Virus record (IMG/VR): IMGVR_UViG_3300020045_010314
Coordinates: 1-54,836 of that record
Source of the DNA: a virus
Taxonomy: Duplodnaviria; Caudoviricetes
DNA: 54,836 nucleotides
Strand: one strand, 5' to 3'
The notes under the pieces were generated by a model. That model worked only from the letters and a program-made list of their open reading frames with translations, was not told where the DNA came from and did not search any database. Shown piece after piece: positions 4,739 through 35,347 of the stretch. The translations under genes were made by a program, and so were the position numbers. Positions within the stretch are counted from its first letter, which is position 1. Each line of letters starts with the position of its first letter.

Positions 4739-4945
4739 ATGGCAAAACAAGACACAAAGAAATACATTCCAGATTTACTTCCTGCGGGGACGATTGTAGA
4801 AGTAGTGAAGTACAATATTAGGACCGGAGAATTTATAGGAATGAAACTAATGAGTCACGGAGATTTCAAGAATATGGTGAAGCAGAAAGGGTTTCGGTAT
4901 CAAGAGTTTCAGAAAAATTTCTCACAATACAAAGATAAAACATGA
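4739..4945 (+). CDS. Hypothetical protein
   Basis: 68-aa ORF, overlaps MTase start. Confidence 0.7.
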   Translation: MAKQDTKKYIPDLLPAGTIVEVVKYNIRTGEFIGMKLMSHGDFKNMVKQKGFRYQEFQKNFSQYKDKT

Positions 4946-5385
4946 AAAACATTCACATTAACAACGACGACAATTACGCAACTCCTCCAGAATTGTATAA
5001 TGAATTGAATGAGGAGTTTCACTTTGATTTTGATCCTTGTCCTTATAATGAAAAAGAGATCGTAAATAACGGATTGATCGTCGATTGGGGGATGTCTAAT
5101 TACATAAATCCTCCATATTCTCAAAAATTAAAGGAATTATTTGTAAAAAAAGCAATAAACGAAGCTAAAAAAGGCAAAACCTGTGTGTTATTGATACCCG
5201 TAAGCACTTCTACAATATTATTTCACGATCATATTAAACCAAACGCAAAAGAAATAAGGTTTTTAAAAGGCAGAATAAAGTTTGGTAAGCGAGATAAGGA
5301 AGGGAATTTCTATTTGCCTCTAAATTCAAAAGGAAAAACGCAATCAGGTACAAAAGACAGTATGATCGTTATTTTTAAAAACTAA
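4942..5385 (+). CDS. Phage DNA N6-adenine methyltransferase (Dam-like family)
   Basis: YATPPELY, FDFDPC, catalytic NPPY, LLIPV, IRFLKGRIKF motifs. Confidence 0.9.
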   Translation: MKNIHINNDDNYATPPELYNELNEEFHFDFDPCPYNEKEIVNNGLIVDWGMSNYINPPYSQKLKELFVKKAINEAKKGKTCVLLIPVSTSTILFHDHIKPNAKEIRFLKGRIKFGKRDKEGNFYLPLNSKGKTQSGTKDSMIVIFKN

Positions 5386-10782: not shown

Positions 10783-11076
10783 CTACAAAGTCAAAACAAC
10801 ATCTGTATAGGGTACTATCAAGTAGTTTTGGCCGTCGATGGTCATTGAGGTAGCATTATGTTTTTTGAATACTATTACTTCTCCTTCTTTCAAGGTTATT
10901 TCTCCCTTGGAGTTTACACAACGCTCCCCCACTGAAACTACTGTCCCCGCTTGTTGAGATTCATTGCTATCCACGTACCCACTAATATCAAAGCCTCCGG
11001 ATAGTTTGTTCTCAAGAGTTTTTGGAGATACGATTATATTTAGGTTTTTGGCCTGAAACTTTTGCTTATTTTTCAT
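10783..11076 (-). CDS. groES: Co-chaperonin GroES (Cpn10)
   Basis: GTVVSVGE, LKEGEVIVF, IDGQNYLIVPYTDVV; start revised to Met at 11076, overlapping the groEL end. Confidence 0.85.
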   Translation of the reverse strand: MKNKQKFQAKNLNIIVSPKTLENKLSGGFDISGYVDSNESQQAGTVVSVGERCVNSKGEITLKEGEVIVFKKHNATSMTIDGQNYLIVPYTDVVLTL

Positions 11077-12667
11077 CGGTTTTTCTTTTGAATGGCATAA
11101 CAAAATTTGTTCTTAATAGGTTATTTGAGGCGGAGGCAGCATTAGCTAAGGCGTTTTTAACTCCTTTTACGGTATCGATAATTCCGGCATCGAACATATT
11201 TACTTCTTTGTATTCTTTTACGTCGTAGCCCATTGGATATTCTCCAATAATATGGCCGTTTGCGGTATGTGGTGCTAAATCTTTTCCTGCATTTGATAAA
11301 ATCTTTTTCAAAGGAGCTGAAATAGAAGTATATGTAACTCCGTCTATACTATCTCCAAAATGATTTAAACAGGAGTATAACGCAATTCCTCCTCCTGCTA
11401 TAACTCCATCTTTTGCAGAACGCACACCGCAAACAGCATCATCAATACGAGCAATCTTTTCTTCGACTTCGGAAGGCGTAATTCCTCCGACTCTAATTGT
11501 AGCAATTCCTCCCGATATTTTTGCGATTCTTTCCTTCAGGTAGTTTTTTTCGTTTTCGTTATCCTGAATAATAATTTGTGCGGTTAGTTCGTTTATCACT
11601 CCTTGCTCTTTGGATTTGTCGCGATCAGGATTTAATGTGATTACGGAGTCCTTTTCTTTGATTTCGATTCTATCGCAGGTTCCTAAGAAGGTATTTTCTT
11701 TTCCCGTGTAGTCCGAACGAGAGATTCCGTCCAAAACACTACAACCCAAAATCAAAGCCAAGTCCGATAGATTTTCACGGCCTTTTTTACCGATAAATGG
11801 CGGGTTGACTACACAAATAGGAAATCCATATTGACGTACATTAGCTAATAAAACTTCGGAAACATTATCTTCCATAGTAGAGATTACCACTAATGGACGC
11901 GGAGCAACGAAAGGCACTCCTTCTACATTTTCAGGAAATGCAATATTCACGAATGGTCGAATATCCTCGAAAGTCTGAAAGTGAAAATTAGAAACAATTA
12001 CCAATGGATTGTCGAACACTACACTTTGAGTTTCCGGAGAGTTTATGTAGGCTTCGTGTGCAAATCCTCGTTCAATAGGGTTGCCGTCGATAAAATCAGT
12101 AAAGGTTTCATCGGTGAAGCTACGATTATGCGATACTGTACCGTACTCCCCTGCCTTGATAAATGCCTCTGAAACTATCTTGGCAATTTCGTCGTCGCCA
12201 TGAGCTGATGTTTTAGCAATATCAAACATTAATTCATTCGTAAGCGGAATGGAAAGTTTATCCAAGTATTCCGTAACTAATGCGACTGATTTTAATATTT
12301 CCTGCGAAACCTCAATGGCGTTTTTACCCTTTTCTACTGCTTTTAGGGAGTTTTGAAAAAATGCTTGAGTCAAAACACATACTAAAGTTGTGTTATCTCC
12401 AACGTTACTATGTTGTTTTCTACAAGCTTCTTTAACTAATTCGCAAGCCATATTCTCTATTGGGTCGGATAAAAACATCATTTCTAATGAATCGTAACCA
12501 TCGGAAGTAATATGCGGCATCCCGTCAAAAGTTTCGAATAAATTATTTGAGCCTCGGTAGCCCATAGTAGAGCCGATAACGTCGCATACCTGATTTACTC
12601 CACTCAATAGTTTGTCTTTTGCTTCTGGACCGGTGACAACTATTCTATTTACATTTTGTTGTTGCAT
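11066..12667 (-). CDS. groEL: Phage chaperonin GroEL (Cpn60)
   Basis: 533 aa; STMGYRG, ITSDG, VGDNTT, ERIAKISGGIATIRVGG, DDAV, GGGIAL, GIIDTVK motifs. Confidence 0.95.
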   Translation of the reverse strand: MQQQNVNRIVVTGPEAKDKLLSGVNQVCDVIGSTMGYRGSNNLFETFDGMPHITSDGYDSLEMMFLSDPIENMACELVKEACRKQHSNVGDNTTLVCVLTQAFFQNSLKAVEKGKNAIEVSQEILKSVALVTEYLDKLSIPLTNELMFDIAKTSAHGDDEIAKIVSEAFIKAGEYGTVSHNRSFTDETFTDFIDGNPIERGFAHEAYINSPETQSVVFDNPLVIVSNFHFQTFEDIRPFVNIAFPENVEGVPFVAPRPLVVISTMEDNVSEVLLANVRQYGFPICVVNPPFIGKKGRENLSDLALILGCSVLDGISRSDYTGKENTFLGTCDRIEIKEKDSVITLNPDRDKSKEQGVINELTAQIIIQDNENEKNYLKERIAKISGGIATIRVGGITPSEVEEKIARIDDAVCGVRSAKDGVIAGGGIALYSCLNHFGDSIDGVTYTSISAPLKKILSNAGKDLAPHTANGHIIGEYPMGYDVKEYKEVNMFDAGIIDTVKGVKNALANAASASNNLLRTNFVMPFKRKTDEK

Positions 12668-15417: not shown

Positions 15418-17379
15418 ATGACTAAAATATCTAAAAAAGCTGCATATCCTATAAAAAAGCCTGTAAAGAGAGATTACTTTATAGGTACGGATAGTGAGAA
15501 TTTTAATAAGACAGTTAACTTTGATTTTGAGGATGCGACGGCGGTTATTAATGAGCTGAACGGACAGTCGGTTATAGGTTATCAATTTAAGACAGCTACG
15601 GATGTTCTTGTGGGGGTTTTAGAGGAGGCAGAGTTTTATTCGCTCGGCAACGAAACGACGATTTCTGACATTACGAAATTGTACGTGAACAAATTCACCA
15701 AAAACTCCCTGAACTTATCGAATTTATACAACTACCTACTTGTAAATATTGCTGATTTCTTGTTTAAATTACAAGGAACAGACCCGAATGTTTATGTTTA
15801 CTTCAACCTTGCAAGTATAGAAAATCATTCAAGCCACTACGTATTCAACGTTACGCTTTACAAGGGTAATGCAGTTTTGCCGGAATTAATCAATTTTGGG
15901 GAGTATTTCTTCAACTTTGAGTTGAAATCAATTGGAGCCGGAAGCGGTTCAGACCCCTTAAAACTTGATAAGGCAGGGTATGCCGGAAACGCCGAAAATT
16001 TGGATGATAGAATTGTAGCATTAGAAAACGCTACACTTCCTGATGCAGTTTTAAAATTTGGGGAAGTTGTTGTTGATGGAAATACTGCTACTATTGCGGC
16101 TAACGGTTTTCAGTGGAGGTTAAGCCAAATAGAACACCTAGTTACTCCTTCATATTCAACTCCAATAAATAACGCTACATCGGGGTTTTATAGAAGCGAT
16201 TTAGTTGTAGGTGATACTACAGGTAATTTCAGTTTAATCGAAGGTGATGAAGATGAAATTACAGCTCCAGAACCACTTGTTCCTGATGGCTTTATAAAAC
16301 TTGCTTTGATTCCTATTTTTGGAAGTACGGTAGGTGCTCCATTATTGCTGCCAAACTACGACGATAAATTCCTAAAAAGATATAAAACTACCTATAAAAC
16401 ATCACAGCCTATTTTTTATATTTCTCCTTCTGAAGATGACTATAATGTGATATTTACGGGTTCTGGAAATTCTTTAATAAGAATTGAATTAAACGGAACT
16501 CTAGGGAAATACATTAAGAACGGGGCTATTTATCCTTTTAAAAATAGAGGCTTAGGAACAGTTACAGTAAATGCAATCGCAGGAGTTACGGTAAATGCTC
16601 CTAATGGACTTATTTTAAATTCTAATCAGCAATGTTATCTTATTAAAGATGATTACAATGAATGGACTTTTATTAATCCCATTTCAAATATTTTGGAAGG
16701 CTTTATTCCTTTAACAGGAACTACAGTAGGTAATCCTGTTAGTGGTGCAATAGAAACAAATTCAGAAATATTTTTAAAAACAACCGCAGGTCAGTTTTCA
16801 GATGATGGTGGCGAATTAATTATAAAACATCCTTATGGGGTCAGTTTACGAAATGTAGATGACACTACAATTATTGGAATTTCGGGTGAAAATATATCGA
16901 TAAAAGGTGAGTCTATAAACTCAAGAGGAATAATAAGCTCTTATGATTACTCTCCAAATATCACAGACCTAGACTACCCACAAAAGATATATGTAGATAA
17001 AAAACAAGAAGCTTTGGTTTCAGGGGATAATATTAAAACCAAAGGAGGAATTTCTTTATTGGGGTCTGGTGACATTCCTGAATCTGATTCTTTGACTACA
17101 ACAACGTCAATTACTTCATCTACACTTACTAATTATGGACATGCTCAAAACGGCAAAATAATAAAAATAGATAACGGCGCCAACGTAATAAACTACACTG
17201 TAAATGGATTGACCGCTTCTTTCGTGAAAGGAGGAACAGGTGCGATAACTTTTGTTCAGGGAGCAGGAAGAACGCTCACGGGAGCAAACGGAACATTAGT
17301 TTTTAATGGTGCTATTAATAGTTCGGCAAGTATCGTGAGTAACGGAACGGTAGATGTTCTTTACATAAATAATTTATAA
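15418..17379 (+). CDS. Tail fibre/structural protein
   Basis: N-terminus shared with the 21912 protein; repeated KGxGxVT beta modules. Confidence 0.7.
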   Translation: MTKISKKAAYPIKKPVKRDYFIGTDSENFNKTVNFDFEDATAVINELNGQSVIGYQFKTATDVLVGVLEEAEFYSLGNETTISDITKLYVNKFTKNSLNLSNLYNYLLVNIADFLFKLQGTDPNVYVYFNLASIENHSSHYVFNVTLYKGNAVLPELINFGEYFFNFELKSIGAGSGSDPLKLDKAGYAGNAENLDDRIVALENATLPDAVLKFGEVVVDGNTATIAANGFQWRLSQIEHLVTPSYSTPINNATSGFYRSDLVVGDTTGNFSLIEGDEDEITAPEPLVPDGFIKLALIPIFGSTVGAPLLLPNYDDKFLKRYKTTYKTSQPIFYISPSEDDYNVIFTGSGNSLIRIELNGTLGKYIKNGAIYPFKNRGLGTVTVNAIAGVTVNAPNGLILNSNQQCYLIKDDYNEWTFINPISNILEGFIPLTGTTVGNPVSGAIETNSEIFLKTTAGQFSDDGGELIIKHPYGVSLRNVDDTTIIGISGENISIKGESINSRGIISSYDYSPNITDLDYPQKIYVDKKQEALVSGDNIKTKGGISLLGSGDIPESDSLTTTTSITSSTLTNYGHAQNGKIIKIDNGANVINYTVNGLTASFVKGGTGAITFVQGAGRTLTGANGTLVFNGAINSSASIVSNGTVDVLYINNL

Positions 17380-18314
17380 TGAATACGCATCAATGGTATC
17401 TTATGGGGTTAGTCACTAAAAAGTCTTTTGTTTCTACTTGGGACACAACCAAAACGGCAAGCGGATCAAGCGCATCTACACAAGTTAAATTGCCTCTTCA
17501 AAATATTGAAGGCGTGTACAATTTTACGGTAAATTGGGGAGACGGAAACTCTAATGTGATAACAGTATGGAATCAGGCAGAAACTACACACACTTATTCA
17601 AGTTCAGGAATTTACACCATTACCATTAACGGTATATGCAAAGGGTTTAGATTTGTAGGAACAGGAGATAGGTTAAAGATTTTGTCTGTTCAAAGTTGGG
17701 GAGGATTGAATTTAGGAAATAGTGGCAGTTATTTTACAGGGTGTACAAATCTAAATTTAATATCAGTTTCAGATGTTTTAGACTTAACGGGAACGCTGTC
17801 GCTAATCGCTATATTTGACAGTTGCTCATCACTTATAGCGGTAAATAAAATGAATGAATGGAATACTTCTGCTGTAACTAATATGTCTTATATGTTTAAT
17901 CTTGCTACAAGTTTTAATCAAAATATAGGAAGTTGGAATACGGCAAATGTTACTAATATGGAGGCGATGTTTAGAGCCGCAAGCGTGTTTAATCAAAACA
18001 TTGGTAGTTGGAACGTTTCAAAAGTAACTACAATGGCGGCTATGTTTCAGTTTCAAGGTTCTTTTAATCAAAACATTGGTAGTTGGAACGTTTCAAAAGT
18101 AACCGATTTTACATCTTTTATGCCATCTAAAACAACTGCTAATTTTTCCACAGCTAATTTAGATGCTATTTATAATGGGTGGAGTTCACGGCCTGTTTTA
18201 TCAGGAAAAACAATCACCTTTGGAAGCGCAAAATACACAAGCGCATCAAGTACTGGGAGAGCAATTTTAACAGGCGCGCCAAATAACTGGACAATAACGG
18301 ATGGAGGTATTTAA
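17379..18314 (+). CDS. PKD + DUF285 (BspA-like) repeat protein, likely adhesin
   Basis: VNWGDG/THTYSSSGIYTITI PKD domain; 25-aa FNQNIGSWNVSKVT repeats. Confidence 0.85.
   Translation: MNTHQWYLMGLVTKKSFVSTWDTTKTASGSSASTQVKLPLQNIEGVYNFTVNWGDGNSNVITVWNQAETTHTYSSSGIYTITINGICKGFRFVGTGDRLKILSVQSWGGLNLGNSGSYFTGCTNLNLISVSDVLDLTGTLSLIAIFDSCSSLIAVNKMNEWNTSAVTNMSYMFNLATSFNQNIGSWNTANVTNMEAMFRAASVFNQNIGSWNVSKVTTMAAMFQFQGSFNQNIGSWNVSKVTDFTSFMPSKTTANFSTANLDAIYNGWSSRPVLSGKTITFGSAKYTSASSTGRAILTGAPNNWTITDGGI
17988..18103 (+). repeat. Exact 41-bp direct repeat, 75-bp period
   Basis: 17988-18028 = 18063-18103 within the DUF285 units. Confidence 0.85.
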
Positions 18315-24326: not shown

Positions 24327-26984
24327 ATGATTGGATTAAGTGACGATTTAGATTTAGCGATAAAAAATGCGATTGACGTATTGAACGCTCCAATTGACAT
24401 TACGGATGTTGATTCGGAGAAACTTGCTAATTTAATGAAATCTATTACAGATGGGTTTATTTACACTAAGGAATTAATAGTTTCTTGGGAAAACTCCCAA
24501 AACGCACCAAGTCATTCCAAGTTAAAAGGACATATAGAGAAACTTGTTGTAGCGGGAGAAAATTCTATTGAAATACTACGTAAAGCATTAAGAAAATCTA
24601 TTGAAATATCAGAAGTAGATGCTGAAAAATATGGAGTCTCAATTAAAGCAAAGCCAATTATTTTTAAAGCAATTAACGATATTAATGCAGGTATTTTAGA
24701 ATTAAAACTCCAAATAGAGGCTGACAAGTTTGACCTTAAGGCAAGGGAATTTCGTCGTGGTTATCCTGAAAAGTTTGCCAACCAAGAATTCTATCCCTTA
24801 AAAAACTACCACAAGGAATGGTATGATGAAGCAAGCGATAGTATTTTACTTTGTCCAAACGGCACAAAGGGAGAAATGATTACGCTTGACGGATTGAATA
24901 TTACCCTTCCTAAAAAACCAAAACAGACCGACATTCTTTTTCACAGAAAACAAAAAGACGAACAGTTTTGGAAAAGAGTAGAGACACCAAAGGGACTTAC
25001 CCCTGACAATGAAGAAGTCTATGCTTCATTCATATTAGAGGAATTTAAACGTAGACGCGAGGGATTATGGTTTATGAATAATGGAGAGGCAGTGTATCTT
25101 ACTCCTGCTCATTATATGGCGCTACAATGGATTAAAATGCTTGATACCGGAAGTTATATGGATTTCCGTTACGCGCAAAGAGATATGTTTTATTTCACCA
25201 AGGCTTGTTTTTTAGATAGGCGTTGTTTAGGAGAATTATTCGTTAAATCAAGACGTACTGGGTTTACCTATCAAATTATTTGCGAACATATTAATGACGG
25301 AACGTGTACTAGTAATGCTAAGTTGGGGATTGTTTCTAAGACAGGAGATGATGCCGAGGAAGCGTTCTTGAAATTATCCTATGGTATTCAAAATTTACCA
25401 TTCTTTTTTATTCCTGTTGTGAAAGGTAAAATAGATAGTAAAACTCAATTAGAATTTGGGAAGCCTTCAGACCAAAGCAAGCTTGCCAAACAGAAAAAAG
25501 ACAATAGTACCGATGATTATCTAAATACTATACTTGACTGGAAAACAACTACTGAAGGTGCTTATGACGGACAAAGAATGTACCGATTATTGGTAGATGA
25601 AGCAAGTAAACCTTTAAAGCCATTTAATCTAATTACCTATTTAGGACGTGTTTCTCCTACTATGAATAACGGCGGTAGAATCGTTGGAAAAATGCTAATC
25701 GGATCCACGGTTAATCCAAAATCGAAAGGTGGAGAGGAATTCGAAAAAGTTTATTTAGGGTCATTAGTAAAGAAAAGAAATATTCATACTCAAATGACAC
25801 CTACAGGATTATACGCTTATTTCCTTCCTGCACATAGAAATATGGAGGAGTTTACAGATAAGTTTGGAGTATGTCATACCGTAGTTGAAGAAGGTAAATT
25901 CTTTTACAATGTGCAAGGAATAAAGAAAACAAGTGGCTCTATTCATTACTTGGAAGCGGTTAGAAAATCTAAAAAAGCACAATCAGACATTCTTTATAAT
26001 GAAGAACTTAGGGCAAACCCTATGACAATTGATGAAGCGTTCCGTGATGAGCTTATATCCTCATTACTTAATCCAGACCGTATTAATGAGCAATTAACAC
26101 ATAACAACGATGTGGAAATTGAGAAAACATTAACAAGAGGGAATTTTTCTTGGAAAGACGGCATAGAGCACACAGAAGTAATATGGACACCAATGGAAAG
26201 AGGACGTATTCTAACCGGATGGCTTCCTCCAAAAGAAATGCAGAATAAGTGGGAAATGCGTAGGAATCTATTTGGAGGATTTAGTAAGCATCCTTTAAAT
26301 GAGGAATTAGGCGCTTTTGGATGTGATAACTATGACCAAGATTCTGTTCAAGGAAGTTTTCTTGAAGAAACAGAAAACGGATCAGAATATAAAGGAGGTT
26401 CAAGAGGTGCGTTTCACGGATTAACAGGGTTTAATTTAGACAATGTGCCAAACAACTATTTCTTTTTGGAATATATCACACGCCCACAAACGTCAGAGAT
26501 ATTCTATAATGATGTTTTAATGGCTTGTGTATTTTACGGAATGCCAATTCTTATAGAAAATAACAAGATGGGATTACTACAACACTTCTATAACAAAGGT
26601 TATAGAGGGTATAGTATAAGTAGGGTTGACAAAACTATGAATATGCTTTCGCAAACCGAGAAAAAATATGGAGGTATGCCAAGTTCCGGAGATGATGTAA
26701 TTACAAAGCATTGGACGGCAATAGAAGGATATATTGATAAATATGTTGGGATTTATTCCAAAGGAGATAATCAAACTGCCATACGAGAAGAAGGAGAACC
26801 AGGAAGCATGCCTTTTAATAGAACGCTTAAAGATTGGTTGAAATTCAACGTAACCAAAAGGACAGATTTTGATGCTTCTATATCATCAGGACTTGCGATT
26901 ATGGCAGTGAACAGAAAGCTATATCTACCGAAAGAGCAAGAAAAAAAACCATTCGTTTTAAACTTACACCGATATAAAAATTAG
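24327..26984 (+). CDS. terL: Terminase large subunit with N-terminal helical extension
   Basis: Walker A KSRRTGFT, Walker B LLVDEASK, GST coupling motif, nuclease GCD...ENNK...DASISSGLA. Confidence 0.92.
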   Translation: MIGLSDDLDLAIKNAIDVLNAPIDITDVDSEKLANLMKSITDGFIYTKELIVSWENSQNAPSHSKLKGHIEKLVVAGENSIEILRKALRKSIEISEVDAEKYGVSIKAKPIIFKAINDINAGILELKLQIEADKFDLKAREFRRGYPEKFANQEFYPLKNYHKEWYDEASDSILLCPNGTKGEMITLDGLNITLPKKPKQTDILFHRKQKDEQFWKRVETPKGLTPDNEEVYASFILEEFKRRREGLWFMNNGEAVYLTPAHYMALQWIKMLDTGSYMDFRYAQRDMFYFTKACFLDRRCLGELFVKSRRTGFTYQIICEHINDGTCTSNAKLGIVSKTGDDAEEAFLKLSYGIQNLPFFFIPVVKGKIDSKTQLEFGKPSDQSKLAKQKKDNSTDDYLNTILDWKTTTEGAYDGQRMYRLLVDEASKPLKPFNLITYLGRVSPTMNNGGRIVGKMLIGSTVNPKSKGGEEFEKVYLGSLVKKRNIHTQMTPTGLYAYFLPAHRNMEEFTDKFGVCHTVVEEGKFFYNVQGIKKTSGSIHYLEAVRKSKKAQSDILYNEELRANPMTIDEAFRDELISSLLNPDRINEQLTHNNDVEIEKTLTRGNFSWKDGIEHTEVIWTPMERGRILTGWLPPKEMQNKWEMRRNLFGGFSKHPLNEELGAFGCDNYDQDSVQGSFLEETENGSEYKGGSRGAFHGLTGFNLDNVPNNYFFLEYITRPQTSEIFYNDVLMACVFYGMPILIENNKMGLLQHFYNKGYRGYSISRVDKTMNMLSQTEKKYGGMPSSGDDVITKHWTAIEGYIDKYVGIYSKGDNQTAIREEGEPGSMPFNRTLKDWLKFNVTKRTDFDASISSGLAIMAVNRKLYLPKEQEKKPFVLNLHRYKN

Positions 26985-32786: not shown

Positions 32787-33815
32787 ATGGAACCACAAGT
32801 AAAAGAACATTGGAAAACTAAAGAAGTTAGAGAAGCGAAAGAAGCAGCAGAAAGATTAGCTTCGGGAGAAACTACCACAGAAACTCCTGCACAAGAAGAA
32901 CAAATAACTACAAATCAAAGTGCAGCGACTCCGGTTGTCAATATTGAAAAATTGATTGCAGATGCGGTAGCAAAAGCATTGGCGAATTTACCGCAACAAA
33001 CCAACGCACAGCAAAACTCTCCTGCCCCACAAATGTTTATGCAGCCCGTGGCATACGATATTGACGACGACATCGATGAATTGAAAGATTGGGAGGTAAA
33101 GGATAGAGAGTATCGTTTAATGGACGGGAAACGCCCTATTTCACATTCCATTCAGAGAGCGCATAGTGCCACAAGTGCAATGCAGTATTTCAACAAACGT
33201 ACAGGGAAAACTCATACGATGAGATGGAGTACAAACCAACCGTCATTTTTCGTGGAGAATCAGAGCAAGAACGCCGCCGACATCCTGGATGCAGAAATTG
33301 TTTTTGAATTTGGGACGTTGAAAGTTTACCAAAATAATCCGAACCTTCAAAAGTTCTTGCGCATACACCCATTAAACGGGATATTGTTCAAGGAATATAG
33401 TGCCATGGAGGAATCCCGCAAAAACGTGGTAGACAAGAAAACCAAAGCAAAAGCTTACAGTCTTATTGAAACTATTGGTTCGGCTACAAACAGAGCTATT
33501 TGTGCGTTAATTAACCCTACATACATCGATGATTGGAAATACGACCAAGTAGAAGAAGTAATTTACAATTACGCTGAATCTAACCCGAAAGAGTATATCG
33601 CCTACTGCGACGATCCAACGGTGAAGATAAAAGGAGTCGCTAAAACTGCCCTTGCCAAAGGAGAATTAGTTTGGAAGAACTACAAATTCTACGATAAAGA
33701 TGGAAATCTTATCTTGGAAACAGATAGAAATAAGGATGAGATGGACGAGATTGCGAGTTACTTCCAATCAGGAGCAGGAAGACAGCTTTATGAATACTTG
33801 ATGAATTTAAGCTAA
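32787..33815 (+). CDS. Conserved hypothetical protein of the head module
   Basis: 342 aa; MRWSTNQPSFFVENQ, LQKFLRIHP. Confidence 0.8.
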   Translation: MEPQVKEHWKTKEVREAKEAAERLASGETTTETPAQEEQITTNQSAATPVVNIEKLIADAVAKALANLPQQTNAQQNSPAPQMFMQPVAYDIDDDIDELKDWEVKDREYRLMDGKRPISHSIQRAHSATSAMQYFNKRTGKTHTMRWSTNQPSFFVENQSKNAADILDAEIVFEFGTLKVYQNNPNLQKFLRIHPLNGILFKEYSAMEESRKNVVDKKTKAKAYSLIETIGSATNRAICALINPTYIDDWKYDQVEEVIYNYAESNPKEYIAYCDDPTVKIKGVAKTALAKGELVWKNYKFYDKDGNLILETDRNKDEMDEIASYFQSGAGRQLYEYLMNLS

Positions 33816-33837
33816 AATACGTAAGGCTTGAATGTAG

Positions 33838-33870
33838 AAAACCCCGATTCTTTATTGAGTCGGGGTTTTT
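33838..33870. terminator. Bidirectional terminator (late gene / tRNA operon)
   Basis: A4-CCCCGATTC...GAGTCGGGG-T5. Confidence 0.8.
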
Positions 33871-33877
33871 AGTTTTG

Positions 33878-33958
33878 TACCGAAAATGGGACTCGAACCC
33901 ATAAAACCCTCGCTTCTAAGGCGAGATACTCTGCCATTCGTTTTTATGTCACTTCGGC
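33878..33958 (-). tRNA. tRNA-Leu(UAG), atypical
   Basis: Acceptor GCCGAAG/TTTCGGT, A73; anticodon arm CTCGC-CTTAGAA-GCGAG; short variable loop, enlarged D region. Confidence 0.8.
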
Positions 33959-33963
33959 GGTTG

Positions 33964-34035
33964 CTTTAGTAGAGAGATTCGAACTCCCATTGATAGGTTC
34001 GTAGCCTATAGTTCTATCCGTTAAACTATACTAAA
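33964..34035 (-). tRNA. tRNA-Arg(ACG)
   Basis: TTTAGTA/TACTAAA; ATAGG-CTACGAA-CCTAT; GGGAG-TTCGAAT-CTCTC. Confidence 0.9.
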
Positions 34036-34040
34036 ATTTG

Positions 34041-34114
34041 GGTGATGCACGAGAATCGAACTCGCATCAATAGATTCACAGTCTATCCGCTTAGCCATTT
34101 AGCGTAACGCCACC
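34041..34114 (-). tRNA. tRNA-His(GUG)
   Basis: G-1:C73; ATAGA-CTGTGAA-TCTAT; GCGAG-TTCGATT-CTCGT. Confidence 0.9.
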
Positions 34115-34119
34115 ATTTG

Positions 34120-34191
34120 TTGAAATATTAGGATTCGAACCTAAATAGCGAAATTCAAAGTTTCGTATGCTAACCGTTGCATCATATTTCA
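34120..34191 (-). tRNA. tRNA-Gln(UUG)
   Basis: TGAAATA/TATTTCA; CGAAA-CTTTGAA-TTTCG; TTAGG-TTCGAAT-CCTAA. Confidence 0.92.
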
Positions 34192-34197
34192 GTTTAG

Positions 34198-34271
34198 TAG
34201 AATAGAGTGGATTCGAACCACCTATACACTGACCCAGCCAGTTACCAGTTTCCAATTACTGTATCTACTCT
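34198..34271 (-). tRNA. tRNA-like element with aberrant anticodon arm (TGG in loop)
   Basis: Intact acceptor AGAGTAG/CTATTCT, D arm and T arm; anticodon arm ACTG-GCTGGGT-CAGT lacks U33. Confidence 0.6.
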
Positions 34272-34278
34272 ATATTTG

Positions 34279-34351
34279 TCGCATAGGCAAGACTCGAACT
34301 TGCAATCTCCCGCTTCCAAGGCGGGCGCGTAACCAATTTTGTCACTACGCG
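34279..34351 (-). tRNA. tRNA-Pro(UGG)
   Basis: CGCGTAG/CTATGCG, C1-G72, A73; CCCGC-CTTGGAA-GCGGG; weak D stem. Confidence 0.85.
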
Positions 34352-34355
34352 AAAT

Positions 34356-34388
34356 AAAAAAAGCCTTCTCGGTTTGAGAAGGCTTTTT
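34356..34388 (-). terminator. Attenuator terminator directly upstream of the tRNA operon
   Basis: GCCTTCTC-AAACC-GAGAAGGC-T7, ending 4 nt before tRNA-Pro. Confidence 0.85.
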
Positions 34389-34410
34389 ATGTGTTTATAT
34401 TTTTTAAATA

Positions 34411-34485
34411 TTATCCATACCAAGTACTTCCCAAAAAGAGATTATGTAGCGGAAGGCATTGGATATTTATTTTTAATGTTTTCAT
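34411..34485 (-). CDS. Putative attenuator leader peptide MKTLKINIQCLPLHNLFLGSTWYG
   Basis: ATG 4 nt after TAAGTTTG; CNN codons at positions 9, 11, 12, 13, 14 and 16 only. Confidence 0.7.
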   Translation of the reverse strand: MKTLKINIQCLPLHNLFLGSTWYG

Positions 34486-34489
34486 AGGA

Positions 34490-34539
34490 CAAACTTACAA
34501 CAAATAACAATACGAATTACAAAATATGGAAACTATTTC
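34490..34539 (-). promoter_or_regulatory. tRNA operon promoter with upstream GAAATAGTTTCCA box
   Basis: TAAGTTTG at 34497-34490; box at 34539-34527. Confidence 0.65.
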
Positions 34540-34565
34540 ACTTTGCGTGTGAAATTTCAAAAAAC

Positions 34566-34607
34566 AACCGACAACAAATGTTTGCAAATGAATAATGAAT
34601 ATCTTTG
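34566..34607 (+). promoter_or_regulatory. Late promoter motif copy 6
   Basis: AACCGACAACAAATGTTTG-N15-TATCTTTG. Confidence 0.85.
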
Positions 34608-34627
34608 TTACAGAAAATAATATCAAT

Positions 34628-35347
34628 ATGATTAGTATAAATCGCGTAAGGAATACAGTGTTATTCTTATTAAACAAATCCAACCGCGGAAATATCGGCG
34701 TACAAGAGTTTGACGCTTTTTGTCATCTTGCTCAAATGGACTTATTTGAGAATTTGTTTTACAGATTGAACAAGCATACGAACAACCAAACTAAGAAATA
34801 CGTAAACTCCGAGTATGCCGACATAGTTCAGAACATTCAGGAGCAAATCGATGTTTTTGCTGATTATTCAACCCCCGCTAATTTCACGTATAACACACCA
34901 AATAATGTATGGAGTTATTCAGGAGGAAACTTGTATCGTAGTGAAGGACTGACTTTAATTAACGCGGCAGGAAAGCGCCGTGATGTGCAAGAAGTACATA
35001 AAGGGTATGAGTTGAATATCGCATCGAAAGAAGCCACAAACACCTATCCTATTTACACCAAGATTGGTAATTCGTACAGGATCTACCCTACTCTAACTGC
35101 CGGATATACCACTGAACTATTTTTTATTCGCACTCCCAAAACTCCTAAATGGACTTATGTATTGTCGGGAGGAAATCCTGTTTACAATGCGGGAGCCGGA
35201 GATTTGCAAGACTTTGAACTTTCGGAAGTGATGTTTCCTCTTTTGGTAGCGAAAATATTATCGTATTGCGGAATCTCCATCAAGGAAAATGATGTGGCTG
35301 CCATCGCCGACAATGAAGGAGTACAAACCGAACAAAAACAATCCTAA
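34628..35347 (+). CDS. Head-tail adaptor/ring protein (putative)
   Basis: Start revised to MISINRVRNTV because the track ATG lies inside the promoter; RTPKTPKWTY, DFEL motifs. Confidence 0.65.
   Translation: MISINRVRNTVLFLLNKSNRGNIGVQEFDAFCHLAQMDLFENLFYRLNKHTNNQTKKYVNSEYADIVQNIQEQIDVFADYSTPANFTYNTPNNVWSYSGGNLYRSEGLTLINAAGKRRDVQEVHKGYELNIASKEATNTYPIYTKIGNSYRIYPTLTAGYTTELFFIRTPKTPKWTYVLSGGNPVYNAGAGDLQDFELSEVMFPLLVAKILSYCGISIKENDVAAIADNEGVQTEQKQS

What the first reader, a model, noticed from the sequence alone, without database searches (positions are those of the whole stretch)
33878..34351. tRNA operon is a complete A37 set for C-starting codons (TrmD/m1G37-independent backups)
All five intact tRNAs have G36 (UAG, ACG, GUG, UUG, UGG), one for each amino acid with CNN codons, and no other tRNA type is present. 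All have the loop CU-NNG-AA, i.e. A37. Bacterial Pro and Leu(NAG) tRNAs normally have G37 methylated by TrmD. In many bacteria His, Gln and Arg(ICG) do too; my recollection is that this includes Bacteroidota. The set looks selected to escape loss of m1G37 or a nuclease/toxin recognising G36-G37, rather than to match codon usage.
Basis: partly seen in the sequence, partly recalled or inferred. Interest (0 to 1): 0.9.

Follow-up and report, generated by a model that had tools for sequence, protein, structure and literature searches.

The report
Demand-switched phage tRNA set lacking G37
This phage carries a small self-contained module that appears to make its own tRNAs for all C-starting codons only when ribosomes slow down on those codons, and these tRNAs lack the guanine at position 37 that the likely host family always has there.

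Summary
The minus strand at 34351-33878 encodes Pro(UGG), Gln(UUG), His(GUG), Arg(ACG) and an odd Leu(UAG), all with A37, plus a sixth tRNA-like element that keeps G36-G37. In about 30 sampled Flavobacteriaceae genomes the housekeeping counterparts all have G37 (22 of 22 to 30 of 30).

The same set recurs in 15 viral loci, including Cellulophaga phage phi19:1, in at least five genomic contexts. Close relatives lack it or carry other sets at the same site.

New here: a promoter, a 24-codon leader ORF rich in C-starting codons and an intrinsic terminator ending 4 nt before the first tRNA. This looks like a leader-peptide attenuator. In six different cassette types the leader codons match the downstream tRNAs. 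This scan has noted such attenuators before on other DNA; I found no paper on them.

Codon usage does not explain the set: C-starting codons are rarer in the phage than in host genes.

Related A37 tRNAs sit in chromosomal arrays beside RtcB and PrfH RNA-repair genes.

The "on-demand backup" reading is well supported. The specific TrmD or nuclease-escape rationale for A37 stays unproven, and one phage array has host-like G37 tRNAs.

The parts
33873..34554 (-). Whole module (promoter, leader, terminator, six tRNA-type genes). Contigs of relatives join 33872 directly to 34555, so the module is present or absent as one 682-bp unit.
   Evidence: table 5. Joint 33872>34555 in runs X1 (depth 836.5, side 31), X3 (5.1, side 23) and X5 (4.31, side 46). 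The closest relative record G002 has no tRNA at all.
34490..34497 (-). Candidate Bacteroidota-type -7 promoter box, 4 nt before the leader start codon, which would make the mRNA leaderless or nearly so.
   Evidence: Read. The consensus is recalled, not tested. The same box sits just before the leader ATG in the other cassette loci.
34411..34485 (-). Leader ORF, 24 codons plus stop (stored as P0001).
   Evidence: Homologous short ORFs lie at the same distance (about 130 nt before the first tRNA) in 12 of 15 cassette loci.
34438..34461 (-). Control codons 9-16. Six of the eight are C-starting (Gln, Leu x3, Pro, His), interrupted by one Cys and one Asn codon.
   Evidence: In a relative's contig the Cys codon reads as an Arg codon (place 34458) and one Leu codon as Gln (place 34448), which gives six C-starting codons in a row (table 3; 54 further differences were not shown).
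34427..34432 (-). Candidate antiterminator segment inside the 3' part of the leader ORF. It can pair with the 5' strand of the terminator.
   Evidence: For this window the pairing is weak: dG -5.9 to -6.2, equalled by 47 of 300 and 126 of 500 shuffles. It is much stronger at the same relative place in several other loci.
34355..34388 (-). Intrinsic terminator: a 13-pair hairpin and T run that ends 4 nt before tRNA-Pro.
   Evidence: scan tool, minus strand 34388..34358.
34279..34351 (-). tRNA-Pro(UGG), A37.
   Evidence: (51.2 bits).
34198..34271 (-). tRNA-like element with paired acceptor, D and T arms. Its anticodon arm has C33 and G36-G37, or folds as a 6-pair stem with a 3-nt loop.
   Evidence: (24.5 bits). 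A copy in L443 is 93.5% alike over 62 nt, with changed but still paired acceptor and T stems.
34120..34191 (-). tRNA-Gln(UUG), A37.
   Evidence: (64.3 bits).
34041..34114 (-). tRNA-His(GUG), A37, with an encoded G-1 at 34114.
   Evidence: 46.6 bits.
33964..34035 (-). tRNA-Arg(ACG), A37.
   Evidence: (59.8 bits).
33878..33958 (-). Atypical tRNA-Leu(UAG), A37. It is 81 nt with a 7-pair acceptor, no long variable arm and an enlarged D region.
   Evidence: (26.5 bits).
33837..33870 (.). Hairpin shared by the end of the upstream + strand gene and the end of the tRNA operon.
   Evidence: listed for the + strand only.

Best explanation
The locus is a self-contained 682-bp accessory module: promoter, short leader ORF, intrinsic terminator and a six-gene tRNA operon.

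Proposed mechanism: RNA polymerase must pass the terminator to reach the tRNAs. A ribosome translating the leader decides this. If it runs quickly through the C-starting control codons to the stop codon, it covers the ORF's 3' segment and the terminator forms. If it stalls on those codons because Leu(CUN), Pro, His, Gln or Arg(CGN) decoders are scarce or defective, that segment pairs with the terminator's 5' strand and transcription reads through.

The product is one decoder for every C-starting codon box. These tRNAs belong to a mobile tRNA lineage of Flavobacteriaceae and their phages that has A37 (sometimes U37) where all housekeeping counterparts have G37. They therefore cannot be, and need not be, methylated by TrmD, and they differ from the host tRNAs at loop positions 32, 37 and 38.

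Most likely use: to replace the host's m1G37 tRNAs when these fail during infection, through cleavage by a tRNA-directed defence or toxin or through under-modification.

Shown by computation: the anatomy, the host-versus-phage difference, the recurrence and mobility, and the match between leader codons and cargo tRNAs.

Inferred: translation of the leader, switching of the terminator, expression and charging of the tRNAs, and the reason for A37.

My odds: attenuator-gated, demand-sensing tRNA operon about 0.85; A37 itself matters for the benefit about 0.4.
For: 1. Anatomy. The terminator ends 4 nt before tRNA-Pro, which leaves no room for a separate promoter. A leader ORF lies upstream.

2. 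Same layout elsewhere. 12 of 15 viral loci with this cassette have it. In 11 of them the leader holds five or six consecutive C-starting codons for the cassette's amino acids. By isotype, the chance of such a run is about 3e-4 to 8e-4 per leader. For the window it is a run of 4, P about 0.02.

3. Leader and cargo change together.
- Tyr/Phe/Leu(UAA)/Ser/Cys cassette: run of 10 cognate residues.
- Tyr/Leu/Ser cassette: run of 12.
- Calle_1 block with added Glu and Leu(UAA) tRNAs: run of 14 that includes Glu and UUA codons.
- None of these three runs was reached in 100,000 simulations.
- L443's second block (Ala, Gly, Met, Asp, Thr and others) has a leader made largely of those residues.

4. Antiterminator. 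The ORF's 3' end pairs with the terminator's 5' strand at the same relative place, with different sequences in different loci. dG is -8 to -14.5, and 6 of 16 distinct leaders are equalled by at most 25 of 500 shuffles.

5. Host G37 is invariant. TrmD is present in 2 of 2 host genomes checked.

6. N37 in viral cassette genes.
- Pro: 19 A of 20.
- Gln: 18 A of 19.
- His: 10 A and 7 U of 18.
- Arg: 16 A of 18.
- Leu(UAG): 7 A of 9.

7. Codon usage. C-starting codons make up 118 per 1000 in 41 phage ORFs against 151 per 1000 in 223 host ORFs.

8. Optional module. It is absent from the closest relatives, and cassettes are swapped at the same site.

9. Related chromosomal arrays with A37 lie next to RtcB and PrfH. 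In one genome they also lie next to a WYL regulator, two RlaP genes and a second RtcB.

10. Pro(UGG) keeps G37 in 10 of 10 genes from other phages.
Against: - For this window alone the evidence is weaker than for its relatives. The control run is broken by Cys and Asn codons and has no Arg codon. The proposed antiterminator is 6 pairs, dG about -6, equalled by 16-25% of shuffles.
- Three cassette loci (L237, L245, L249) have the terminator but no leader ORF.
- No RNA data exist: no transcript ends, no evidence that the leader is translated.
- Against a special role for A37: L443 has G37 Pro, Gln, His and Leu(UAG) behind a similar leader. Single G37 members occur in L236/L247 (Arg), L162 (Leu), L262 (Arg, Leu) and L269 (His).
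- Cassettes for other codon classes mostly keep the host-type A37, so the system as a whole is not built around position 37.
- Most viral cassette loci were found through words of the cassette's own tRNAs. They are homologues, not independent samples.
- No tRNA nuclease, RNA ligase, SAM-degrading enzyme or tRNA-modifying enzyme was recognised among the 39 window ORFs scanned.
- The host of this phage is not known. The host set is a family-level sample.
Confidence: 0.6

Rival explanations
1. Plain self-tuning supplementation. The attenuator is a feedback loop that tops up decoders of C-starting codons to the level the phage's translation needs. A37 is just an inherited mark of the mobile tRNA lineage and has no role of its own.
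For: - A leader that senses the very codons its cargo reads is a negative feedback loop by construction.
- Other cassettes cover other codon classes and mostly keep host-type position 37.
- L443 uses host-like G37 tRNAs behind the same control.
- A37 is shared with chromosomal arrays, so it is inherited.
- Host genomes hold one gene for most of these tRNAs, so supply could be limiting.
Against: - C-starting codons are the least used class in the phage and are rarer than in host genes. Only CAA is enriched, 27.2 against 20.6 per 1000.
- Close relatives with presumably similar codon usage carry no cassette or a different one. That pattern fits an arms-race accessory better than a translation need.
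- Position 37 is never G in 17 of 18 His genes although it drifts between A and U.
- Related arrays sit in RNA-damage repair islands.
Confidence: 0.28
2. Specific independence from TrmD or SAM. During infection m1G37 cannot be made on new tRNA (limited TrmD or SAM), so only G37-free tRNAs are useful. The leader senses stalling caused by unmethylated G37 tRNAs.
For: - All five host counterparts are G36-G37 tRNAs, the TrmD substrate class. TrmD is present in the host genomes checked.
- The phage set cannot be methylated at position 37.
- Loss of m1G37 is known to stall ribosomes at Pro and some Arg and Leu codons. This is recalled knowledge and I read no paper on it here.
Against: - Existing host tRNAs are already methylated and stable, so a shortfall would affect new tRNA only.
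- No SAM-degrading enzyme or TrmD-related gene was recognised in the 39 ORFs scanned.
- It does not explain the U-codon and Ser/Leu/Tyr cassettes, nor U37 in Asp and Glu tRNAs of the arrays.
- L443 carries G37 tRNAs.
Confidence: 0.08
3. A selfish or decaying mobile cassette with little or no benefit. The Leu gene and the Pro-like element are pseudogenes.
For: - Two of the six genes score below the Rfam cut-off.
- The module is present or absent among close relatives.
Against: - Both odd genes are conserved elsewhere with compensatory stem changes.
- The four canonical tRNAs score 46.6-64.3 bits.
- Leader codons follow cargo content across six cassette types.
Confidence: 0.04

Closest known systems
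Leader-peptide (ribosome-mediated) transcription attenuators of amino-acid operons (trp, his, leu, thr, ilv leaders; Rfam Bacteroid-trp RF01692)
   Same: A short ORF with a run of regulatory codons, followed by an intrinsic terminator, with an alternative pairing that involves the end of the ORF. It is multivalent, like the thr and ilv leaders (recalled).
   Different: It controls tRNA genes rather than biosynthetic enzymes, and it sits in a phage. It senses a class of decoders rather than one amino acid. The mRNA is probably leaderless. No Rfam leader family reaches its cut-off here (best: Phe_leader 29.2 against 55, Bacteroid-trp 27 against 49). Two full-text searches listed no paper on such control of tRNA genes (15 of 174 and 12 of 31 hits listed, titles and abstract starts seen).
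Phage tRNAs with anticodon-loop changes proposed to escape host anticodon nucleases (van den Berg et al. 2023, PMC10264068)
   Same: The phage tRNAs differ from host tRNAs within the anticodon loop, and codon usage does not explain the set.
   Different: That paper (abstract, Results and discussion, and passages read) concerns mycobacteriophages and enterobacterial phages with known nucleases. My term search of it found no mention of position 37, G37, A37 or m1G. Here no nuclease is known, the change covers a whole codon class, and expression appears conditional.
Long accessory tRNA arrays (L-arrays), such as the cryptic trn operon of Anabaena (Santamaria-Gomez et al. 2021, PMC8421152)
   Same: Horizontally moving accessory tRNAs distinct from housekeeping ones, induced when translation is impaired, with rtcB in the neighbourhood. 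Bacteroidetes are named among the phyla that have L-arrays (passages read). The window's tRNAs are closer to Flavobacteriaceae chromosomal arrays than to housekeeping tRNAs (Arg best identity 0.73 against 0.45).
   Different: The Anabaena operon is regulated through promoter repeats, not a leader peptide. Arrays there hold up to 43 genes, whereas this module has six genes for one codon class and lies in a phage.
TrmD / m1G37 substrate class (tRNAs with G36-G37 that read C-starting codons)
   Same: The five anticodons are exactly those of the host's G36-G37 tRNAs.
   Different: The defining G37 is absent from the five phage tRNAs. Only the non-decoding Pro-like element has it.
E. coli argX-hisR-leuT-proM tRNA operon (recalled from memory, not checked here)
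   Same: A natural operon made only of tRNAs for C-starting codons.
   Different: It is a housekeeping operon, has no leader peptide that I know of, and has canonical position 37.

Membership tests
Canonical tRNA (Rfam RF00005) | Score at or above the gathering cut-off of 29 bits, with a cloverleaf | tested here: met
   Met for Pro, Gln, His and Arg (46.6-64.3 bits). Not met for Leu (26.5) or the Pro-like element (24.5).
TrmD substrate tRNA | G36 followed by G37 | tested here: not met
   The five decoders have G36-A37. Host counterparts have G36-G37.
Leader-peptide transcription attenuator | Short ORF with a start codon, directly upstream of the regulated genes | tested here: met
   24-codon ORF at 34485-34411. 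Found in 12 of 15 cassette loci.
Leader-peptide transcription attenuator | Run of codons cognate to the regulated function | tested here: met
   Window: 6 of 8 codons. Relatives: 5-6 in a row. Other cassette types: runs of 10, 12 and 14 cognate residues.
Leader-peptide transcription attenuator | Intrinsic terminator between the ORF and the regulated genes | tested here: met
   The terminator ends 4 nt before tRNA-Pro.
Leader-peptide transcription attenuator | Alternative antiterminator pairing that a ribosome at the stop codon would mask | tested here: inconclusive
   Good in several relatives (at most 25 of 500 shuffles as good in 6 of 16 distinct leaders). Weak in the window (126 of 500). 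My stem parser failed for five leaders.
Leader-peptide transcription attenuator | Leader is translated and termination responds to decoding speed | not testable with these tools
   No RNA holder was listed and only contigs were available.
L-array type accessory tRNA array | Long array (ten or more genes) of horizontally acquired tRNAs distinct from housekeeping ones | tested here: not met
   The module has six genes. They are related by sequence to chromosomal arrays of 10-19 genes, so it is kin of that family rather than a member by length.
Nuclease-escaping phage tRNA (anti-defence tRNA) | Loop differs from the host tRNA at the site a host nuclease recognises or cuts | tested here: inconclusive
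   The loop differs at positions 32, 37 and 38. No host nuclease is known, so the second half of the feature could not be tested.

The most novel reading that the evidence does not exclude
Flavobacteriaceae and their phages share a mobile family of G37-free decoders for all C-starting codons. They are deployed on demand by a codon-sensing attenuator, as a countermeasure to a still unknown defence or toxin that inactivates tRNAs through the G36-m1G37 signature. The sister cassettes (U-starting codons; Ser/Leu/Tyr) would then answer other class-specific tRNA attacks. Each cassette's content would name the tRNA class that its host's defence destroys.
Probability: 0.3. Interest if true: 0.9.

Novelty: new variant of a known kind. 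Interest (0 to 1): 0.8.

Why it matters
Why phages carry tRNAs is a question more than 50 years old. This is a minimal case, five decoders for one codon class, in which three observations point the same way:
- The set does not follow codon usage.
- Its members differ from every sampled host counterpart at one defined loop position.
- Its own control region seems to measure the decoding of exactly those codons.

The switch turns the question into a test. Read-through of the leader should report which tRNA class fails in an infected cell. Cellulophaga phage phi19:1, which is cultured, carries the same module.

If the A37 reading is right, it predicts a tRNA-directed defence keyed to m1G37. It would also show that tRNA-Pro can work without G37.

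The link to chromosomal tRNA arrays inside RtcB-PrfH repair islands suggests that bacteria and phages draw on one pool of spare tRNAs.

Tried and rejected
**Codon compensation.** Rejected as the main cause. The host ORFs were crude calls from tRNA-flank loci of about 30 genomes, not from the true host.

**Helper genes.** I looked for a phage gene that would explain the set: SAM-degrading enzyme, RNA ligase, tRNA nuclease or modifier. None was recognised in the 39 ORFs scanned. The record is about 73% complete and most small ORFs have no family.

**Expression.** No RNA holder was listed. The four runs laid are contigs and cannot show starts, ends or levels.

**Relatives of a virus record.** These are not drawn by the genome search (error). 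I reached host genomes through a 16S probe scan instead.

**Leader-anchored scans of viral contigs.**
Only 1 had tRNAs within 260 nt (L539).
- 14 stretches, of which 6 were cassette loci already known and 8 were chance hits in coding DNA.
- only the 4 contigs already known.

**Antiterminator shuffle tests.**
- They are weak for the window (47 of 300; 126 of 500).
- My hairpin parser picked the wrong stem in L235, L252, L260 and L157.
- It also picked the wrong stem in L428, L158/L159, L162 and L261. In one search the search window also missed the candidate segment in L260.

**Pro-like element.** An exact 20-nt word was found in 2 viral contigs. Only L443 holds a full copy; L444 shares 26 nt.

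**Control sample of other phages' Pro(UGG).** Five of the ten genes were picked by likeness to a G37-type query, so that half is biased.

**Not used.** Structure prediction, complex prediction, protein homology searches and covariance models were not needed.

**Closed material.** Supplements of PMC10264068 and PMC8421152 were closed. They may hold loop-position tables and lists of Bacteroidetes arrays that bear on novelty.
Full report
**1. What is there.**
The window is a linear IMG/VR virus record of 54,836 bases, about 73% complete. ARAGORN finds six tRNA-type genes, all in one minus-strand array at 34351-33877, and none elsewhere.
- Rfam's tRNA model passes Gln, Arg, Pro and His (64.3, 59.8, 51.2 and 46.6 bits; cut-off 29). 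It leaves Leu(UAG) at 26.5 and a second Pro-like gene at 24.5.
- Read from the sequence, the five named tRNAs share the loop C32 U33 - anticodon - A37 A38.
- The Leu gene is longer than ARAGORN's call. A 7-pair acceptor stem forms with a 5' strand starting at about 33958, five bases after Arg, which matches the 4-6-base spacers of the rest of the operon. It has no long variable arm and has an enlarged D region.
- The same odd Leu gene occurs in L239, L252 and L248 with different but still paired anticodon, T and acceptor stems, so it is maintained.
- The sixth element has paired acceptor, D and T arms but C33 and G36-G37. A copy in viral contig L443 is 93.5% alike over 62 nt. Its D and anticodon arms are unchanged and its acceptor and T stems are changed but still paired.

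**2. Host comparison.**
Relatives infect Cellulophaga, so I sampled Flavobacteriaceae. I reached them through a 16S probe scan.
- In one complete genome (G001, titled Flagellimonas sp.) all nine housekeeping tRNA genes with G36 have G37.
- In samples of about 30-40 genomes drawn evenly from that family, the loops are invariant and have G37: Pro(UGG) 30 of 30 loci, His 28 of 28, Gln 22 of 22, Arg(ACG) 29 of 29, Leu(UAG) 29 of 29.
- TrmD is present in 2 of 2 genomes checked.
- The phage tRNAs differ from these at positions 32, 37 and 38.
- The true host of this phage is unknown. The runs that share words with the stretch are labelled wastewater and freshwater, at small shares.

**3. Recurrence and mobility.**
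- Cellulophaga phage phi19:1 has exactly five tRNAs in its whole genome, the same five, all with A37.
- Scans of viral contigs with words from the Pro and Gln genes gave 28 loci. Thirteen of them hold only this cassette, with or without Leu. With the window and L539 that makes 15 loci.
- Flanking proteins show several contexts. In the window the cassette lies between the genes at 32787-33815 and 34595-35347, on the opposite strand. Nine distant syntenic relatives (27-36% protein identity) have it one gene earlier and on the coding strand. L259 has it between homologues of the genes at 24327 and 26988. L248, L254 and phi19:1 share no flank proteins with the window.
- In Calle_1 and phi38:1 the block is part of a 20-plus tRNA region.
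- I also searched through the neighbouring structural gene. Only 4 of 80 related loci have tRNAs within 4 kb.
- The two closest of those relatives (87-88% identity) have none, and one is a 96%-complete record with no tRNA at all.
- Three loci (57-60% identity) carry Tyr, Phe, Leu(UAA), Ser(UGA) and Cys at the same place and strand. One locus (54%) carries Tyr, Leu(UAA), Ser(UGA), Ser(GCU) and Leu(UAG).
- Contigs from three public runs join 33872 to 34555, skipping the 682-bp module exactly. These joints were laid at 85% likeness with short sides, so they are a hint, not proof.

**4. Position 37 across the family.**
| tRNA | Viral loci | Chromosomal arrays (section 8) |
|---|---|---|
| Pro | 19 A, 1 G (of 20 genes) | 10 of 10 A |
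| Gln | 18 A, 1 G | 9 of 9 A |
| His | 10 A, 7 U, 1 G | 6 of 7 A |
| Arg(ACG) | 16 A, 2 G | 9 of 10 A |
| Leu(UAG) | 7 A, 2 G | 8 of 9 A |

- In the viral count I dropped the duplicate records L001, L255 and L572-574, and left out the Pro-like elements.
- The G37 cases are L443 (all four types present there), L236/L247 (Arg) and L162 (Leu).
- These loci were mostly found by homology, so they are not independent.
- The U37 His genes show that position 37 can drift without returning to G.

**5. The control region.**
- The terminator-like hairpin and T run at 34388-34355 end 4 nt before tRNA-Pro, so the operon can be reached only by read-through.
- Upstream lies a 24-codon ORF (34485-34411), directly behind a box that fits the Bacteroidota -7 promoter consensus (recalled).
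- Six of its codons 9-16 are C-starting, for Gln, Leu, Pro and His.
- In a relative's contig the interrupting Cys codon reads as Arg and one Leu codon as Gln. That gives six C-starting codons in a row for all five amino acids (table 3; 54 further differences were not shown).
- The same layout occurs in 12 of 15 cassette loci: box, ORF of 22-30 codons about 130 nt before the first tRNA, then hairpin and T run. Eleven of them have five or six consecutive C-starting codons for the cassette's amino acids.
- L237, L245 and L249 have another leader without an ORF.

**6. Leader and cargo vary together.**
I took peptides and isotype sets from the stored loci by rule and used residue frequencies from the window's ORFs as background.
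| Cassette | Longest run of cognate residues | Chance of such a run |
|---|---|---|
| C-codon cassettes | 5-6 | about 3e-4 to 8e-4 |
| Window | 4 | 0.02 |
| L259 | 3 | 0.02 |
| Tyr/Phe/Leu/Ser/Cys | 10 | not reached in 100,000 simulations |
| Tyr/Leu/Ser | 12 | not reached in 100,000 simulations |
| Calle_1 block (Pro, Glu, Gln, His, Leu(UAA), Arg) | 14 | not reached in 100,000 simulations |
| L443, first block | 3 | 0.16 |
| L443, second block | 6 | 0.17 |
| 16-gene chromosomal array | 11 (34 of 41 residues cognate) | 0.04 |

- The two L443 blocks are weaker by this measure because their isotype sets are large. Even so, the second leader is made largely of Thr, Gly, Ala, Asp and Met, which that block encodes.
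- A cross table shows the runs lie on the diagonal, apart from overlaps between sets that share isotypes.

**7. Alternative pairing.**
- In most leaders a segment 8-24 nt before the stop codon can pair with the 5' strand of the terminator. Its sequence changes along with the terminator's.
- dG is -8 to -14.5 in L238, L239, L248, L254, L259, L539 and both L443 leaders.
- Of 16 distinct leaders, 6 were equalled by at most 25 of 500 shuffles.
- The window's pairing is weak (dG about -6; 47 of 300 and 126 of 500).
- My parser failed on several stems, so this feature is supported for the family and remains open for the window.

**8. Context in bacteria.**
- BLAST of the cassette against 401 Flavobacteriaceae genomes hit 19.
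- The 12 loci fetched include 10 chromosomal arrays of 10-19 tRNAs. Their C-codon members mostly have A37 (see the table in section 4).
- In those arrays Asp and Glu have U37 (9 of 9 and 10 of 10). Phe often has G37 (6 of 9). The Leu genes lack the long arm.
- The window's tRNAs are closer to these arrays than to housekeeping genes.
- In G028 the array follows a WYL/WCX regulator, two RlaP genes, an RtcB, a DUF4209 protein, a second RtcB, PrfH (TIGR03072, 236.8 bits against 166.65) and a TPR protein. An SPFH gene lies after the array.
- RtcB, PrfH and TPR lie directly upstream of the array in 6 of the 10 array genomes whose upstream side I examined. A distant RtcB lies 3-4 kb upstream in one more. 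None lies within 8 kb in three.
- Two viral arrays (L236, L247) also have an RtcB homologue beside them.

**9. Other checks.**
- Codon usage. C-starting codons make up 118 per 1000 in the phage against 151 per 1000 in host ORFs. Only CAA is enriched.
- No tRNA-related enzyme was recognised among the 39 window ORFs scanned.
- Pro(UGG) in other phages has G37 in T4, T5, KVP40 (two genes) and Bxz1. It also has G37 in five further phages picked by likeness to a canonical Pro gene, giving 10 of 10.
- Leu(UAG) has A37 in T5 and KVP40, and Phe has G37 in both. The unusual member of this set is therefore Pro with A37, together with the completeness of the set.

**10. Reading.**
- Shown: the anatomy, the host-versus-phage difference, the mobility, and the leader-cargo match.
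- Inferred: the leader is translated, stalling on its control codons opens the terminator, and the tRNAs are charged and used.
- A conditional switch and the turnover among close relatives fit a backup used when host decoders fail. They fit a constant codon-usage aid less well.
- The repair-island context of the sister arrays points to RNA damage as the setting.
- Whether A37 is the point (escape from something that reads G36-m1G37, or freedom from TrmD) is not settled. L443 and the other cassette types argue that the system is not built around position 37.

**11. What is known.**
- Phage tRNAs with loop changes as nuclease escape: PMC10264068 (abstract, section 4 and passages read).
- Accessory L-arrays induced by translational stress, with rtcB nearby and Bacteroidetes named: PMC8421152 (passages read).
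- A conserved tRNA block in Cellulophaga phages: PMC6409571 (passages read).
- PrfH-RtcB repair: search listing and abstract starts only.
- The searches listed no paper on a G37-free C-codon set or on leader-peptide control of tRNA genes. These searches cover only the held open-access library.
- This scan's own earlier notes describe leader-peptide attenuators before phage tRNA operons on other DNA. I found the one here before reading those notes, and they are not independent evidence.

Noticed in passing
window 34198-34271 (-); L443 6401-6475: A tRNA-like element with normal acceptor, D and T arms whose anticodon arm lacks U33 and can close into a 6-pair stem with a 3-nt loop. A copy in viral contig L443 has changed but still paired acceptor and T stems. 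In relatives' contigs this stretch (34146-34277) is replaced by 107 other letters.
   Followed up: partly
window 33878-33958 (-); L239, L252, L248, L254, L260, L162, L261-L272: All Leu tRNAs of these cassettes and arrays (anticodons UAG and UAA) lack the long variable arm of bacterial Leu tRNAs (74-82 nt). The window's type has an enlarged D region instead.
   Followed up: partly
L235, L237, L238, L244, L245, L249, L253: tRNA-His(GUG) with U at position 37, a pyrimidine where tRNAs almost always have a purine.
   Followed up: no
G028:C1 about 986000-1002000 (L431, L261, L432); also G143, G357, G075, G260, G029: Chromosomal arrays of 10-19 accessory tRNAs inside an RNA-repair island: WYL regulator, two RlaP genes, RtcB, DUF4209, RtcB, PrfH, TPR, the array, then SPFH. 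The array has its own 40-43-codon leader ORF and terminator.
   Followed up: partly
L261-L272; also T5 and KVP40 (L421, L422): In the chromosomal arrays Asp and Glu tRNAs have U37 (9 of 9 and 10 of 10) and Phe often has G37 (6 of 9). Phe with G37 is also seen in phages T5 and KVP40.
   Followed up: no
L237, L245, L249 (about 100 nt before tRNA-Pro): The same Pro-Gln-His-Arg cassette and terminator, but the leader has no ORF and a different sequence of about 70 nt. It may be another kind of switch.
   Followed up: no
L236 54-1133; L247 1402-2565: Viral contigs with an RtcB homologue (about 31% identity to the chromosomal one) next to a tRNA array Met-Pro-Tyr-Gln-His-Arg-Ser, in which Tyr and Arg have G37.
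   Followed up: no
L443 6673-6758: A viral tRNA-His of 86 nt that appears to have a long extra arm. The same array's Pro tRNA is nearly identical to the Flavobacteriaceae housekeeping Pro gene.
   Followed up: no
L157, L158, L159 (Leu(UAA) and Cys genes): In the cassette for U-starting codons, Leu(UAA) has G37 and C38 and Cys has C38. These two would not be substrates for the i6A37 enzyme MiaA (rule recalled). Tyr, Phe and Ser keep A36-A37-A38.
   Followed up: no
window 11066-12667 (-), 17379-18314 (+), 4942-5385 (+): The phage encodes a divergent chaperonin (Cpn60 family, 128 bits), a DUF285 protein and a 147-residue DNA methyltransferase-like ORF.
   Followed up: no
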